From: a virus
Taxonomy: Duplodnaviria > Heunggongvirae > Uroviricota > Caudoviricetes
Virus record (IMG/VR): IMGVR_UViG_2851949629_000002
Strand: one strand, 5' to 3'
Length of the DNA stretch: 51,843 nt
This document shows, piece after piece, positions 47,119 to 50,425 of the stretch. Each line of letters begins with the position of its first letter. Within the stretch, counting starts at the first letter, position 1. The position numbers were made by a program, and so were the translations under genes. Under the pieces are notes generated by a model. The model was given only the letters and a program-made list of their open reading frames with translations. It was not told where the DNA came from and searched no databases.

Positions 47119-47340
47119 ATGGCAGACATCATTGATTCAGCATCAGAAATTGAAGAATTACAGCGCAACACAGCAATAAAAATGCGCCGCCTGAACCACC
47201 AGGCTATATCTGCCACTCATTGTTGTGAGTGTGGCGATCCGATAGATGAACGAAGACGCTTGGCCGTTCAGGGTTGTCGGACTTGTGCAAGTTGCCAGGA
47301 GGATCTGGAACTTATCAGTAAACAGAGAGGTTCGAAGTGA
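47119..47340 (+). CDS. DksA/TraR-family C4 zinc-finger protein (lambda orf73-like)
   Basis: 73-aa ORF with CCECGDPIDERRRLAVQGCRTCASCQ four-Cys motif. Confidence 0.75.
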   Translation: MADIIDSASEIEELQRNTAIKMRRLNHQAISATHCCECGDPIDERRRLAVQGCRTCASCQEDLELISKQRGSK

Positions 47341-47885
47341 GCGAAATTAACTCTCAGGCACTGCGTGAGGCGGCAGTAGCAATTGAAACAGTAGCAACAC
47401 CTCAAAAATTGCTGGCATTTCGTATGAAAGTCACACCTCAGGTTGTGCTGGCTCTACTGGATGAACGAGATGCATTAAATGAACGCCTAGCCGAACTGGA
47501 GGCTGATTTAGCAGGGCTGGCCGAAGACCACCAGAAAGCGACTGAGTCAATTAAGCAGGCTGATGCAGCTGTTAAGTTGGCACACGAGAAGTTTTCGGCG
47601 CTGGCGGCGGAGAATGAGCTGGCTCGTAAAGCAGTTCAGGAATTCTGCGATGTTGTTGGCGACAGCACCGAGGTTATCTGCGAGGAGATTGGGAGAGATG
47701 GTGTTCTGGTTATTTTGGAGGCCATGAAGGCAACAGGAAATATGCCAGCCACCGATGCTTTCCTGGCTGAAGTACGGGCGCAGGGGGTGGAGATGATGCG
47801 CGAACATCCATCAATCAAACTTTGCTCTTTGACGCACATATGTGATGAGTTAGCCGCCCAGCTTCGCAAAGGAGGCAACCAGTGA
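47337..47885 (+). CDS. ea22: Ea22-like early protein
   Basis: 182-aa coiled-coil-rich ORF at the position of lambda ea22. Confidence 0.65.
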   Translation: MSEINSQALREAAVAIETVATPQKLLAFRMKVTPQVVLALLDERDALNERLAELEADLAGLAEDHQKATESIKQADAAVKLAHEKFSALAAENELARKAVQEFCDVVGDSTEVICEEIGRDGVLVILEAMKATGNMPATDAFLAEVRAQGVEMMREHPSIKLCSLTHICDELAAQLRKGGNQ

Positions 47886-48015
47886 CTGGACATGCAGCAA
47901 TCCTCGACATGTGCTGTGGCAGTCGCATGTTCTGGTTAGATAAGAATGACGAACGGGCGAGATAAGCGATCGGTTAAGTGCTATAGTAATGCGCTTTTGT
48001 ATTTATGGAGTGAAT

Positions 48016-48714
48016 ATGAAAAATATCCTACTGGCATCATTGTTAGTGGCATCGCCGGGTGCATTTGCAGCCAGCTTTGACTGCCAAAAGGCTTCGACAG
48101 CAATCGAACATAAAATCTGCGATAACGAACGTCTGTCAAAATTAGACGAACAGCTTAGCTCTGCCTATTCTAGTGCCCTCAAAGGAAACCCAGAGAACGC
48201 AGACACCCTAAAAATGGTTCAACGTCAGTGGGTAAATATGCGTGGAAAACTCACTGATAATAAGGCTCTGGAGCTGGCTTATCTTATCCAAATTAATGGC
48301 CTCAAAGGTTTGGGGAGTTCAGTCAGCGTAACAGCGGCCAATGACATACCCACGTCGGCGCAGAAACATTCTAAAGAGCAGGAAGATACAAGTAAGGCAG
48401 AAGCTAAGTCGGTCAAGAACGGCAATAAGCTAACCTTAGAGTCATTCCGAGCTAAATATGTAGAAGTAGATGGTGAGTATTACAGCACGACATCCATTCC
48501 TAGAGGCAGTTCGTTCTTGTTCACTTGCGCTAGTCGTATTGCTGATGACCAAGTGAATATTTGGAAGAAACAGGCAGCCAAAGAGGGCAAAATCGACCTA
48601 TTCTTTGAGGTTGAGAATCACTTACACACGGCTATGTTGAACGCCAATTTTCAGAAGTTGAATTCAGACCCTGCCAAAAGAGGTATTTGTAATCTGATTA
48701 ACGCAGTGCCGTAA
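48016..48714 (+). CDS. Secreted protein with DUF1311 (LprI-like) N-terminal domain, moron
   Basis: Signal peptide MKNILLASLLVASPGAFA, then FDCQKASTAIEHKICDNERLSKLDEQLSSAYSSALK...QRQWVNMR; GGAG RBS; own terminator. Confidence 0.6.
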   Translation: MKNILLASLLVASPGAFAASFDCQKASTAIEHKICDNERLSKLDEQLSSAYSSALKGNPENADTLKMVQRQWVNMRGKLTDNKALELAYLIQINGLKGLGSSVSVTAANDIPTSAQKHSKEQEDTSKAEAKSVKNGNKLTLESFRAKYVEVDGEYYSTTSIPRGSSFLFTCASRIADDQVNIWKKQAAKEGKIDLFFEVENHLHTAMLNANFQKLNSDPAKRGICNLINAVP

Positions 48715-48724
48715 GTAAATTTAG

Positions 48725-48754
48725 GGCCACAGTTGTGGCCTTAAATATTTTTTT
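48725..48754 (+). terminator. Rho-independent terminator after the DUF1311 gene
   Basis: GGCCACAGTTGTGGCC hairpin followed by TTAAATATTTTTTT. Confidence 0.6.
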
Positions 48755-48914
48755 CAGCCTTTTCTTATTTGTAATAAGCAGTACTTGGTAGTGCTTATAA
48801 AACAGAATAAAAAATATATGACTTTGGCGATTACCCAGTAAAGATATTCGAAATAAATGTAAATATCGACAATGAATAACTATCCTCGCACTCGCGGGGA
48901 TTTCTTTTATCTGA

Positions 48915-48939
48915 ACTCGCTACGGCGAGTTTTTTTTTA
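48915..48939 (+). terminator. Terminator-like hairpin
   Basis: ACTCGC-TACG-GCGAGT followed by T9. Confidence 0.5.
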
Positions 48940-48951
48940 TGGAGATGATAA

Positions 48952-49119
48952 ATGCACTTCCGAGTCACAGGTGAATGGAATGGAGAACCATTCAACAGAG
49001 TTATCGAAGCCGAGAACATCAGCGACTGCTATGACCACTGGATGCTGTGGGCGCAGATAGCACATGCAGACGTAACCAATATTCGAATTGAAGAACTGAA
49101 AGAACACCAAGCCGCCTGA
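48952..49119 (+). CDS. Small hypothetical protein (55 aa) upstream of xis
   Basis: ATG ORF MHFRVTGEWNGEPFNRVIEAENISDCYDHWMLWAQIAHADVTNIRIEELKEHQAA with GGAG RBS; terminator hairpin (49110-49133) overlaps its stop. Confidence 0.5.
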   Translation: MHFRVTGEWNGEPFNRVIEAENISDCYDHWMLWAQIAHADVTNIRIEELKEHQAA

Positions 49120-49158
49120 TGGCGGTTTTTTCTTGCGTGTAATTGCGGAGACTTTGCG

Positions 49159-49377
49159 ATGTACTTGACACTTCAGGAGTGGAACGCACGCCAGCGACGC
49201 CCAAGAAGCCTTGAAACAGTTCGTCGATGGGTACGCGAGTGCAGGATATTCCCTCCTCCGGTTAAGGATGGAAGAGAGTATCTGTTCCACGAATCAGCGG
49301 TAAAGGTTGACTTAAATCGACCAGTAACAGGTAGCCTTTTGAAGAGGATCAGAAATGGGAAGAAGGCGAAGTCATGA
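49159..49377 (+). CDS. xis: Excisionase Xis
   Basis: 72-aa MYLTLQEWNARQRRPRSLETVRRWVRECRIFPPPVKDGREYLFHESAVKVDLNRPVTGSLLKRIRNGKKAKS, lambda Xis. Confidence 0.95.
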   Translation: MYLTLQEWNARQRRPRSLETVRRWVRECRIFPPPVKDGREYLFHESAVKVDLNRPVTGSLLKRIRNGKKAKS

Positions 49378-50425
49378 GCGCCGGGATTTACCCCCTAACC
49401 TTTATATAAGAAACAATGGATATTACTGCTACAGGGACCCAAGGACGGGTAAAGAGTTTGGATTAGGCCGAGACAGGCGAATCGCAATCACTGAAGCTAT
49501 ACAGGCCAACATTGAGTTATTTTCAGGACACAAACACAAGCCTCTGACAGCGAGAATCAACAGTGATAATTCCGTTACGTTACATTCATGGCTTGATCGC
49601 TACGAAAAAATCCTGGCCAGCAGAGGAATCAAGCAGAAGACACTCATAAATTACATGAGCAAAATTAAAGCAATAAGGAGGGGTCTGCCTGATGCTCCAC
49701 TTGAAGACATCACCACAAAAGAAATTGCGGCAATGCTCAATGGATACATAGACGAGGGCAAGGCGGCATCAGCCAAGTTAATCAGATCAACACTGAGCGA
49801 TGCATTCCGAGAGGCTATAGCTGAAGGCCATATAACAACAAACCCGGCCGCAGCCACTCGCGCTGCAAAATCAGAGGTAAGGAGATCAAGACTTACGGCT
49901 GACGAATACCTGAAAATTTATCAAGCAGCAGAATCATCACCATGTTGGCTTAGACTTGCAATGGAACTGGCTGTTGTTACCGGGCAGCGAGTTGGTGATT
50001 TATGCGAAATGAAGTGGTCTGATATCGTAGATGGATATCTTTATGTCGAGCAAAGCAAAACAGGCGTAAAAATTGCCATCCCAACAACATTGCATGTTGA
50101 TGCTCTCGGGATATCAATGAAGGAAACACTTGATAAATGCAAAAAGATTCTTGGCGGAGAAACCATAATTGCATCTACTCGTCGTGAACCGCTTTCATCC
50201 GGCACAGTATCAAGGTATTTTATGCGCGCACGAAAAGCATCAGGTCTTTCCTTCGAAGGGGATCCGCCTACCTTTCACGAGTTGCGCAGTTTGTCTGCAA
50301 GACTCTATGAGAAGCAGATAAGCGATAAGTTTGCTCAACATCTTCTCGGGCATAAGTCGGACACCATGGCATCACAGTATCGTGATGACAGAGGCAGGGA
50401 GTGGGACAAAATTGAAATCAAATAA
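49355..50425 (+). CDS. int: Integrase Int (tyrosine recombinase)
   Basis: 356-aa MGRRRSHERRDLPPNLYIRNNGYYCYRDPRTGKEFGLGRDRRIAITEAIQANIELF..., lambda Int. Confidence 0.95.
   Translation: MGRRRSHERRDLPPNLYIRNNGYYCYRDPRTGKEFGLGRDRRIAITEAIQANIELFSGHKHKPLTARINSDNSVTLHSWLDRYEKILASRGIKQKTLINYMSKIKAIRRGLPDAPLEDITTKEIAAMLNGYIDEGKAASAKLIRSTLSDAFREAIAEGHITTNPAAATRAAKSEVRRSRLTADEYLKIYQAAESSPCWLRLAMELAVVTGQRVGDLCEMKWSDIVDGYLYVEQSKTGVKIAIPTTLHVDALGISMKETLDKCKKILGGETIIASTRREPLSSGTVSRYFMRARKASGLSFEGDPPTFHELRSLSARLYEKQISDKFAQHLLGHKSDTMASQYRDDRGREWDKIEIK

What the first reader, a model, noticed from the sequence alone, without database searches (positions are those of the whole stretch)
47886..48762. Secreted DUF1311 (LprI-like) protein as a self-contained moron between ea22 and xis
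In the position where lambda carries ea8.5, this prophage has a 232-aa ORF with a clear signal peptide and a DUF1311-like Cys-containing N-terminal motif (the family that includes a mycobacterial lysozyme inhibitor), plus a C-terminal domain I cannot assign. It has its own RBS and a strong terminator (48725-48754). A periplasmic protein expressed from a prophage is a candidate lysogenic-conversion or envelope-protection factor.
Basis: partly seen in the sequence, partly recalled or inferred. Interest (0 to 1): 0.5.

Follow-up and report, generated by a model that had tools for sequence, protein, structure and literature searches.

The report
Secreted DUF1311 phage moron protein
A lambda-like prophage of E. 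coli carries a small self-contained gene cassette, picked up from a phage-plasmid, that encodes a secreted two-domain protein already labelled "LprI-family lysozyme inhibitor" in public databases; the label is probably too specific, and relatives in T4-like lytic phages point to a phage-serving job in the cell envelope.

Summary
Window 48016-48714 (+) encodes a 232-aa protein with a Sec signal peptide (AFA|ASFDC), a Pfam PF07007 (LprI/DUF1311) match just above threshold, a variable linker, an unassigned C-terminal domain and a strong terminator (48719-48756). It is not new as a sequence. It is 100% identical in phage Lambda_ev099 and in 123 of 5,426 complete E. coli genomes, where RefSeq calls it "lysozyme inhibitor LprI family protein" (PHROG 4675, function unknown).

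New here:
- The cassette (~47947-48755) is 83% identical to a resident gene of SSU5-like phage-plasmids. It landed inside a methyltransferase gene, leaving a 27-codon stump.
- Both domains are under strong purifying selection (dN/dS 0.06-0.08) while the linker is neutral (1.14). All four cysteines are invariant.
- The C-terminal domain models confidently (pLDDT 89), has no PDB or Pfam match, and is almost confined to phages and mobile elements.
- Full-length homologues sit in the early regions of T4-like Aeromonas, Klebsiella and Stenotrophomonas phages.

The "lysozyme inhibitor" reading is weak. The MliC domain credited with that activity in M. tuberculosis LprI is absent, and there is no lipobox. 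My best guess, which is inferred, is a periplasmic binder or inhibitor of incoming cell-wall hydrolases, giving superinfection exclusion or immunity-like protection. Interest is modest.

The parts
47337..47885 (+). ea22-like gene (context, left neighbour)
   Evidence: PF13935 Ead_Ea22, 38 bits against a cut-off of 27; phrog_368.
47882..47965 (+). 27-codon stump (VTGHAAILDMCCGSRMFWLDKNDERAR*) of a putative SAM-dependent methyltransferase gene, truncated by the cassette
   Evidence: 92% identical to the 5' end of an intact 175-aa ORF in Stx2c phages (L008 2464-2991, weak PF08241 hit). Similarity stops at ~47963-47970.
47947..47963 (.). Left junction: microhomology (TGACGAnCnGnCGA) shared by the methyltransferase gene and the 3' end of the SSU5 upstream gene
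   Evidence: Three-way alignment of window, SSU5 and Stx2c phage.
47979..47987 (+). Candidate extended -10 promoter element TGcTATAGT (weak -35, GAGATA at 47959-47964)
   Evidence: TGnTATAGT is invariant in the window, SSU5 and two other phage-plasmid lineages. The consensus promoter scan did not call it. This is an inference only.
48007..48010 (+). Ribosome-binding site GGAG, 5 nt before the ATG
   Evidence: Read from the sequence; invariant in all four aligned loci.
48016..48069 (+). Sec signal peptide (residues 1-18), predicted SPase I cleavage AFA|A
   Evidence: Hydropathy and AxA motif. The cleavage-site position is conserved before ASFDC in all homologues.
48070..48315 (+). N-terminal minimal DUF1311/LprI-type helical domain (residues 19-100), with Cys23 and Cys35
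   Evidence: PF07007 at 25.2 bits, profile positions 1-70 of 106. dN/dS 0.08 against SSU5. ASFDC, E31, I34, C35, D44, Q69 and R76 are invariant.
48316..48429 (+). Low-complexity flexible linker (residues 101-138)
   Evidence: dN/dS 1.14; variable in length and sequence; pLDDT below 40.
48430..48711 (+). Unassigned C-terminal domain (residues 139-232): beta-hairpin, two long helices and a short C-terminal helix, with Cys171 and Cys225
48719..48756 (+). Intrinsic terminator (12-bp stem, 4-nt loop, T-run)
   Evidence: -17.6 kcal/mol, z -4.66. The GGCCAC/GTGGCC stem is conserved while the loop varies in phage-plasmids.
48757..48820 (.). AT-rich filler matching neither SSU5 nor lambdoid backbones; contains a 25-nt imperfect inverted repeat (48760-48812). 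The lambdoid backbone resumes at ~48821.

Best explanation
What it is (well supported):
- A roughly 0.8-kb moron cassette made of a candidate extended -10 promoter, an RBS, the ORF and an intrinsic terminator.
- It originated in SSU5-like phage-plasmids and was inserted by illegitimate recombination into the pL-operon accessory region of a lambdoid prophage, destroying a methyltransferase gene.
- It encodes a soluble protein exported by Sec and cleaved after Ala18. The protein is probably disulfide-bonded (two invariant Cys per domain).
- The protein consists of a minimal DUF1311 three-helix module, a floppy linker, and a phage-specific helical C-terminal domain.

How it most likely works (inferred): the protein sits in the periplasm of the lysogen. 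During lytic growth N-antiterminated pL transcription would also read through the gene. There it binds and neutralises a peptidoglycan-cleaving enzyme that arrives from outside. The most likely target is the tail-associated lysozyme of a superinfecting phage, in the manner of T4 Spackle. A type VI muramidase effector, in the manner of DUF1311 immunity proteins such as Etsi4, is the alternative. One domain would supply target specificity and the other a common scaffold. This mirrors M. tuberculosis LprI, where DUF1311 precedes the MliC inhibitor domain.
For: Anatomy and export.

Cassette transfer:
- 83% nucleotide identity to SSU5_101, limited to ~47947-48755, with unrelated flanks.
- The gene is syntenic and resident in ~110-kb phage-plasmid contigs of Salmonella, Citrobacter, Enterobacter and Klebsiella.
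- A methyltransferase stump marks the left junction, and the lambdoid backbone resumes at 48821.
- GC falls to 42-45%, against 51-54% in ea22.

Selection: dN/dS is 0.08 (N-domain), 1.14 (linker) and 0.06 (C-domain). All four Cys are invariant from lambdoid to T4-like homologues.

Phage-centred role:
- 155 phage records hold homologues.
- Full-length homologues at 26-31% identity lie between primase gp61 (or denV) and dCTPase gp56 in Aeromonas phage 44RR2.8t, Stenotrophomonas phage IME13 and Klebsiella phage F48. In T4 this is an early/middle-transcribed region, by established knowledge.
- BFVD structural matches reach TM 0.80 to Aeromonas phage proteins.

DUF1311 precedent in the periplasm:
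- Etsi4 rescues toxicity of the periplasm-acting T6SS effector Etse4 (PMC12981562).
- LprI-domain orphan immunity genes in Pantoea have homologues next to lysozyme-like effectors (PMC9796082).
- ScwA controls the level of the lytic transglycosylase MltD (PMC7933661).

Modularity:
- RB49p262 has the same leader, DUF1311 and linker with a different C-domain.
- Lipoproteins P0060 and P0062 carry the C-domain with a different N-terminus.
Against: - No experiment exists on any member (PHROG 4675 'unknown function'; no paper cites WP_000789830).
- No target enzyme is encoded next to the gene in any context examined.
- There is no sequence or fold similarity to any solved structure, and no Spackle entry appeared in the listed PDB fold matches.
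- Klebsiella phage F48 encodes both an annotated Spackle and this homologue, so the two are not simple substitutes.
- The DUF1311 match is partial, and the second Cys pair of the canonical domain is missing.
- The promoter is inferred only.
- There are no PADLOC hits.
Confidence: 0.4

Rival explanations
1. Host-lysozyme inhibitor (the RefSeq name and the first reader's lead): the periplasmic protein binds animal c-type lysozyme that has crossed a damaged outer membrane. This would protect the lysogen in the gut or in macrophages, making it a classical lysogenic-conversion virulence factor.
For: - PF07007 hit above threshold.
- RefSeq product name.
- Many identical copies come from animal or clinical E. 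coli isolates.
- M. tuberculosis LprI is reported as a lysozyme inhibitor (cited in PMC7933661).
Against: - The MliC domain (PF09864), to which LprI's inhibition is attributed, is absent at E<=1.
- There is no lipobox, whereas the ScwA authors describe bona fide inhibitors as lipoproteins (PMC7933661).
- ScwA, which has DUF1311 without MliC, gave no lysozyme protection.
- Homologues in virulent T4-like phages of Aeromonas and Stenotrophomonas have no obvious use for resistance to animal lysozyme.
Confidence: 0.1
2. Regulator of peptidoglycan enzymes from the phage or the host: the protein tunes the phage's own lysis. For example, it could restrain the secreted RrrD-type endolysin until the holin fires. 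Alternatively it could stabilise or destabilise host lytic transglycosylases, as ScwA does with MltD. Either way it would adjust lysis timing or cell-wall homeostasis.
For: - ScwA precedent.
- The prophage lysis cassette is a 71-aa holin plus an RrrD-type lysozyme. By my own recollection this resembles the phage 21 pinholin and SAR-endolysin type, which was not tested here.
- The gene lies in the pL operon, so it is also made during lytic growth.
- T4-like homologues sit in early regions, where lysis-inhibition genes also occur.
Against: - The gene is not linked to the lysis cassette in any genome seen.
- It moves between phages with unrelated lysis systems (lambdoid, SSU5-like, T4-like).
- A stand-alone cassette with a candidate constitutive promoter fits expression in the lysogen better than timing of lysis.
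Confidence: 0.15
3. Orphan type VI immunity protein carried by mobile elements: it protects the lysogen from a specific periplasm-acting effector of competing Enterobacteriaceae. This is a sub-case of the best explanation, listed separately because the target differs.
For: - Etsi4 and the Pantoea LprI-domain orphan immunity genes.
- The WHIX paper lists DUF1311 proteins among signal-peptide proteins flanking effectors (PMC12135965).
- The gene is carried by prophages, phage-plasmids and a Yersinia island.
Against: - No effector gene is adjacent anywhere.
- Virulent T4-like phages kill their host within minutes to hours, so they gain little from T6SS immunity.
- The C-terminal domain was not seen in any T6SS locus, because only 10 relatives exist in 1.84 billion representatives and all that were examined lie in phage or island contexts.
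Confidence: 0.15

Closest known systems
Mycobacterium tuberculosis LprI (Rv1541c), founding member of Pfam PF07007
   Same: Exported protein with an N-terminal DUF1311 module followed by a second, separate C-terminal domain.
   Different: LprI is a lipoprotein and its C-terminal domain is MliC (PF09864), to which lysozyme inhibition is attributed (PMC7933661). Here there is an SPase I site instead of a lipobox. The C-terminal domain is unrelated to MliC and to any Pfam or PDB entry. Only the first ~70 of 106 profile positions match.
[not shown]
   Same: Soluble periplasmic DUF1311 proteins with conserved cysteines. They are linked to peptidoglycan-cleaving enzymes: ScwA controls MltD levels and Etsi4 gives immunity to the effector Etse4.
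   Different: ScwA has its DUF1311 domain at the C-terminus of a 275-aa chromosomal protein. Etsi4 lies next to its effector in a T6SS locus. The present protein is phage-borne, has no partner gene, and carries a different second domain. Sequence relationship beyond the Pfam domain was not tested.
Phage T4 Spackle (Sp, gp61.3)
   Same: Analogy only. Spackle is a small early-expressed periplasmic phage protein, and homologues of the present protein lie in the same replication-gene neighbourhood (41-61-56) of T4-like genomes. By established knowledge, Spackle inhibits the gp5 tail lysozyme of superinfecting phage.
   Different: No sequence or fold similarity was detected. Klebsiella phage F48 has both genes. 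The function here is untested.
Lambdoid phage morons (for example lom and bor of lambda, or gp15 of HK97)
   Same: An accessory gene with its own terminator and a candidate promoter, lower GC than its neighbours, absent from sibling phages, and encoding an envelope protein.
   Different: The donor lineage (SSU5-like phage-plasmids) and the insertion scar (a truncated methyltransferase gene, with microhomology at the junction) can be identified here. Expression in the lysogen has not been shown.
PHROG 4675 / RefSeq WP_000789830.1 'lysozyme inhibitor LprI family protein'
   Same: It is this protein: full-length PHROG match at E 3.5e-94, and 100% DNA identity to the annotated gene in ev099 and in E. 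coli genomes.
   Different: Nothing differs in sequence. The database name asserts a function for which no defining feature beyond the partial DUF1311 match is present.

Membership tests
Pfam PF07007 (LprI / DUF1311) | HMM score at or above the curated gathering threshold | tested here: met
   25.2 bits against 22, E 2.2e-5. Homologues score 28.4 (CC2), 26.0 (RB49p262) and 23.1 (F48). P0061, P0055 and IME13 score below threshold at 16-17 bits, and 44RR2.8t has no hit.
Pfam PF07007 (LprI / DUF1311) | Full-length domain with the four conserved cysteines described for the family | tested here: not met
   Only profile positions 1-70 of 106 align, and the N-domain holds two Cys (C23, C35). The other two Cys (C171, C225) lie in the unrelated C-terminal domain. 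It is therefore a truncated or minimal DUF1311 module.
Pfam PF07007 (LprI / DUF1311) | Extracytoplasmic location (signal peptide) | tested here: met
   Sequence-level only: an n-h-c signal peptide and an AFA|A site conserved across homologues. No dedicated predictor was available and no localisation experiment exists.
Bacterial lysozyme inhibitors (MliC/PliC type, as in the C-terminal half of LprI) | MliC domain (PF09864) | tested here: not met
   No PF09864 hit at E<=1. The C-domain model has no PDB neighbour of that fold.
Bacterial lysozyme inhibitors (MliC/PliC type, as in the C-terminal half of LprI) | Lipoprotein anchoring (lipobox with Cys at +1) | tested here: not met
   The leader ends ...SPGAFA|ASFDC, and the first Cys is at +5 of the mature protein.
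Bacterial lysozyme inhibitors (MliC/PliC type, as in the C-terminal half of LprI) | Inhibition of lysozyme activity | not testable with these tools
   Needs purified protein. ScwA, another DUF1311 protein without MliC, gave no protection (PMC7933661).
Phage moron | Own transcription terminator | tested here: met
   Stem 48719-48746 plus T-run, -17.6 kcal/mol, z -4.66; conserved in phage-plasmids.
Phage moron | Own promoter active in the lysogen | tested here: inconclusive
   A conserved TGnTATAGT lies 28 nt before the ATG, but the -35 is poor and the consensus scan made no call. No expression data are available.
Phage moron | Present or absent between otherwise homologous phage backbones, and found in unrelated backbones | tested here: met
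   Flanks match many lambdoid phages that lack the cassette. The cassette recurs in SSU5-like phage-plasmids.
T4 Spackle-type superinfection exclusion proteins | Homology (sequence or fold) to Spackle | tested here: not met
   [not shown]
T4 Spackle-type superinfection exclusion proteins | Blocks the tail lysozyme or infection of superinfecting phage | not testable with these tools
   Requires plating and lysis-from-without assays.
DUF1311-type T6SS immunity proteins (for example Etsi4) | Encoded next to a cognate periplasm-acting effector or within a T6SS island | tested here: not met
   Neighbours are phage or island genes in every context inspected.

The most novel reading that the evidence does not exclude
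The protein could represent an unrecognised, widely shuffled family of phage periplasmic 'envelope guards'. Each member has a constant DUF1311 module tethered to interchangeable specificity domains, here a fold with no solved relative. The family would neutralise the cell-wall-piercing enzymes of rival phages, or T6SS effectors. That would make it a functional analogue of T4 Spackle shared by virulent T4-like phages, phage-plasmids and lambdoid prophages, and a prophage-encoded defence against T-even-type phages in about 2% of E. coli genomes.
Probability: 0.2. Interest if true: 0.6.

Novelty: new member of a known kind. Interest (0 to 1): 0.3.

Why it matters
If the protein blocks incoming phage or T6SS muramidases, it would be a mobile, single-gene envelope defence. 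That would be relevant to phage-therapy host range and to competition among gut Enterobacteriaceae. It would also give DUF1311, a very large 'lysozyme inhibitor' family whose name rests on one protein, a clearer general role. Even without that, the case is a clean example of how a moron moves between phage types, with donor lineage, insertion scar and junction all visible. It is also a caution that the RefSeq product name over-states what is known.

Tried and rejected
- Full-length AlphaFold2 on 13 close homologues gave an unusable model (pLDDT 48.8). Only the C-domain run on a more diverse alignment was informative.
- PDB sequence searches with the protein, the C-domain profile and the N-domain profile gave nothing, or only TPR-like noise on designed repeat proteins.
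- hhalign of the C-domain against the N-domain was negative, so the C-domain is not a second DUF1311.
- PADLOC gave no hits. NCBIfam gave only far sub-threshold hits to CpoB and A1S_1983.
- Rfam on 47300-49400 gave only sub-threshold noise.
- A CRISPR spacer reported against an 'LprI' protospacer in APEC (PMC9732669) does not match this window.
- The 'LprI' text hit in PMC10288061 could not be located in the held text.
- The word-indexed search with the N-domain profile returned only fragments.
- Sethi et al. 2016 (LprI) and Ji et al. 2024 (Cronobacter LprI) are not in the library. Their content is cited only through other papers.
- A conserved partner gene immediately upstream was considered (small membrane proteins in the Yersinia and AlpA islands). 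It was rejected because those proteins show no evident similarity by eye and are absent from the phage loci.
Full report
**1. The observation**

The ORF list and raw sequence show a 232-codon ORF at 48016-48714 on the + strand. GGAG at 48007-48010 lies 5 nt upstream of the ATG. An in-frame ATG at 47989 would give 241 aa. It lacks an SD and is not conserved in the SSU5 copy, so 48016 is taken as the start.

The N-terminus, MKNILLASLLVASPGAFA|ASFDC, has the n-h-c layout of a Sec signal peptide with an AxA cleavage motif. Its 11-residue Kyte-Doolittle maximum is 2.2. The strongest evidence for the cleavage site is comparative. Homologues from Yersinia and from five T4-like phages have unrelated hydrophobic leaders. 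All of them end AxA or AHG immediately before an invariant ASFDC. There is no lipobox.

Pfam PF07007 (LprI/DUF1311) matches at 25.2 bits against a gathering score of 22. The match covers only residues 23-78, which is profile positions 1-70 of 106. Nothing in Pfam, NCBIfam or PADLOC covers residues ~139-232.

The terminator is real. It has a 12-bp stem at 48719-48746 followed by ATTTTTTT, folds at -17.6 kcal/mol, and scores z = -4.66 against shuffles.

The left neighbour is ea22-like (PF13935). Downstream come a 55-aa ORF (phrog_676), xis, int and then the chromosomal gene ybhC, so this is a lambdoid prophage at the lambda attachment site.

**2. It is already in the databases**

- The 915-bp region is 100% identical in Escherichia phage Lambda_ev099 (gp35).
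- It is found at 80% coverage or more in 123 of 5,426 complete E. coli genomes.
- RefSeq names the product "lysozyme inhibitor LprI family protein", WP_000789830.1.
- It matches PHROG 4675 (unknown function) end to end, E 3.5e-94.
- No paper in the library cites the accession.

**3. Where the cassette came from**

The only other close DNA match among phages is Salmonella phage-plasmid SSU5 (SSU5_101), at 83% identity. The match is confined to roughly window 47947-48755: ~70 bp upstream, the ORF and the terminator. The flanks are unrelated.

Protein searches show the gene is a resident, syntenic member of ~110-kb SSU5-like phage-plasmid contigs in Salmonella, Citrobacter, Enterobacter and Klebsiella. 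The local gene order there is HD-domain protein, Phage_phiTE_072 protein, this gene.

In the window, the ea22 stop codon overlaps a GTG that opens a 27-codon ORF (47882-47965, VTGHAAILDMCCGSRMFWLDKNDERAR*). This is 92% identical to the start of an intact 175-aa putative SAM-methyltransferase gene in Stx2c phages. A three-way alignment shows the window following the methyltransferase gene up to ~47963 and following SSU5 from ~47947. The two stretches overlap in a TGACGAnCnGnCGA microhomology.

On the right, similarity to SSU5 ends just after the terminator (~48755), and similarity to HK022-like lambdoid phages resumes at ~48821. GC content falls from 51-54% in ea22 to 42-45% in the ORF and about 36% just downstream.

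The simplest history is capture of the phage-plasmid gene by a lambdoid phage through illegitimate recombination, which truncated a methyltransferase gene.

The promoter part remains an inference. A TGnTATAGT extended -10 (47979-47987) is invariant in four lineages. The -35 is poor, however, and the consensus scan did not report the site. The gene also lies in the sense orientation of the pL operon. N-antiterminated transcripts should therefore read it during lytic growth, by established lambda biology.

**4. Protein architecture and constraint**

Nei-Gojobori comparison of the window and SSU5 alleles:

| Region | Residues | dN/dS |
|---|---|---|
| N-domain | 19-100 | 0.08 |
| Linker | 101-138 | 1.14 |
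| C-domain | 139-232 | 0.06 |

So the protein is two constrained domains joined by a freely evolving tether.

Across lambdoid, phage-plasmid, Yersinia and T4-like homologues, the invariant residues are ASFDC(19-23), E31, I34, C35, D44, Q69, R76 and L96 in the N-domain, and G153, C171, N209 and C225 in the C-domain. All four cysteines are therefore conserved, two per domain, as expected for periplasmic disulfides.

The N-domain is a minimal DUF1311. It is predicted as three helices and lacks the distal Cys-containing part of the Pfam model.

The full-length AlphaFold2 model was poor (pLDDT 48.8). The C-domain alone, on an 8-sequence alignment including 28-43% identical relatives, gave pLDDT 89.3 and pTM 0.81. 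The model is a beta-hairpin, two long antiparallel helices and a short C-terminal helix.

- Foldseek against PDB gave a best E of 4.3.
- hhalign shows the C-domain is not a second DUF1311.
- An exhaustive HMMER scan of 1.84 billion representative proteins with the C-domain found only 10 hits. They include the same architecture in Yersinia enterocolitica (P0061) and an unnamed 230-aa protein (P0055), and lipoproteins with a different N-terminal part (P0060, P0062).

**5. Distribution and what it implies**

BFVD structure search matched the C-domain (TM 0.80) to Aeromonas T4-like phage proteins, one of them annotated DUF1311. tblastn against 50,697 phage records found 155 records. Apart from ev099 and SSU5, every record listed in the two searches is a large phage of ~160-260 kb. 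Those with a taxonomy line are Straboviridae or Marfavirus.

Full-length homologues at 26-31% identity occur in:
- Aeromonas phages 44RR2.8t, 31, 25, Aes508 and CC2;
- Stenotrophomonas phage IME13.

Klebsiella Marfavirus phages match over residues 1-179. RB49-like E. coli phages share only the leader, DUF1311 and linker, and carry a different, beta-rich C-domain.

In 44RR2.8t, IME13 and F48 the gene sits between primase gp61 (or denV) and dCTPase gp56. It lies in the same orientation as the surrounding replication genes, a region transcribed early or middle in T4 by established knowledge.

The Yersinia copy lies at the edge of a small island next to two serine recombinases. The lipoprotein variant lies in an integrase/AlpA island.

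The family is therefore essentially confined to phages and mobile elements, including strictly virulent phages. That makes a purely host-virulence role (resistance to animal lysozyme) unlikely. It points instead to a function useful to a phage inside an infected or lysogenised cell.

**6. What DUF1311 proteins are known to do**

Pfam's name rests on M. tuberculosis LprI. As summarised in PMC7933661, LprI also contains an MliC domain, and inhibition is attributed to that domain. The same paper says no experimental evidence supports lysozyme inhibition by the DUF1311 domain itself. Its own periplasmic DUF1311 protein, ScwA, gave no lysozyme protection but controlled levels of the lytic transglycosylase MltD.

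EHEC Etsi4, a DUF1311 protein, rescues toxicity of the periplasm-acting T6SS effector Etse4 (PMC12981562). In Pantoea, LprI-domain genes are predicted orphan immunity genes whose homologues lie next to lysozyme-like effectors (PMC9796082). DUF1311 proteins are also listed among putative immunity genes flanking WHIX effectors (PMC12135965).

The common thread is periplasmic protein-protein interaction with peptidoglycan-cleaving enzymes.

**7. Most likely mechanism (inferred, about 0.4)**

The mature protein is a soluble, disulfide-bonded periplasmic binder that neutralises a muralytic enzyme entering from outside. Because virulent T4-like phages keep it in their early regions, I favour superinfection exclusion or protection from lysis-from-without, in the manner of T4 Spackle acting on the gp5 lysozyme. 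T6SS-effector immunity is the second option.

The DUF1311-linker-variable-domain layout parallels LprI (DUF1311 followed by MliC) and RB49p262. This suggests one module is a common scaffold and the other confers specificity.

Weak supporting observation: a Spackle query found 738 phage records, and Aeromonas was not among the ten most frequent genera. By contrast, 65 Aeromonas phage records hold this family.

Against the model:
- F48 has both Spackle and this homologue.
- No fold similarity to any solved structure was found.
- No partner gene is adjacent in any context.
- No experiment exists on any member.

Rivals are a host-lysozyme inhibitor (0.1), a regulator of the phage's own or host murein hydrolases and lysis timing (0.15), and an orphan T6SS immunity protein (0.15, overlapping the best explanation).

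**8. Verdict**

This is a real, correctly described feature, and the moron interpretation is sound. The sequence and its family label are already public, and the functional hint in the label is probably over-specific.

The added value here is the donor and scar reconstruction, the domain-level selection pattern, a confidently modelled C-terminal domain without known relatives, and the link to T4-like early genes. Novelty: a new, uncharacterised member of a known kind. Interest: about 0.3.

Noticed in passing
window 47882-47965: A 27-codon stump of a putative SAM-dependent methyltransferase gene overlaps the ea22 stop codon. The intact 175-aa gene is present in Stx2c-converting phages (L008 2464-2991), and its 5' end matches at 90-95% identity in about 350 E. 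coli genome records.
   Followed up: yes
window 48757-48820: About 65 bp of AT-rich sequence matches neither the SSU5 cassette nor lambdoid backbones. It contains a 25-nt imperfect inverted repeat (48760-48784 / 48788-48812). Its origin and role are unknown.
   Followed up: partly
window 48882-49128: A 55-aa ORF (48952-49119, phrog_676, unknown function) is bracketed by terminator-like hairpins (48882-48901, 48913-48932, 49109-49128). The homologous HK022 segment carries an annotated tL4 terminator.
   Followed up: partly
L004 486-11437 (Yersinia enterocolitica): The homologue P0061 sits at the edge of a ~10-kb island next to two serine recombinases. The island also holds an HTH regulator, a small lipoprotein, a 69-aa membrane protein, and four proteins without significant Pfam matches. 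One of these is a 675-aa protein with weak SMC_N/AAA_23 hits. This may be a defence island.
   Followed up: partly
L014 3501-4259 (phage RB49, RB49p262): Same signal peptide, ASFDC-DUF1311 module and acidic linker as the window protein, but with an unrelated, seemingly beta-rich Cys-containing C-terminal domain. The family looks modular, with a constant N-module and swappable C-modules.
   Followed up: partly
L013 19058-19657, 25210-26726 and 42428-43510 (ev099, which matches the window at 99.8-100% identity over the three segments compared, 47337-49160): ev099 carries further envelope or regulatory accessory genes: Lom, a porin gene between Q and the holin, and an AraC-family regulator with transposase fragments beside int. 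Its lysis cassette is a 71-aa holin plus an RrrD-type lysozyme.
   Followed up: no
proteins P0042, P0063, P0064 (E. coli and metagenome): Decayed or rearranged alleles exist: an internal deletion joining the N-domain to the linker (P0042), an N-domain followed by unrelated sequence (P0063), and a C-domain fused to a different N-terminus (P0064). The cassette is therefore not maintained everywhere.
   Followed up: no
L010 2640-2921 versus L010 5001-5753 (Klebsiella phage F48): F48 encodes both an annotated Spackle and the DUF1311 homologue about 2 kb apart. Spackle-like hits (738 phage records) did not list Aeromonas among the ten most frequent genera, whereas 65 Aeromonas phage records carry the DUF1311 homologue.
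   Followed up: partly
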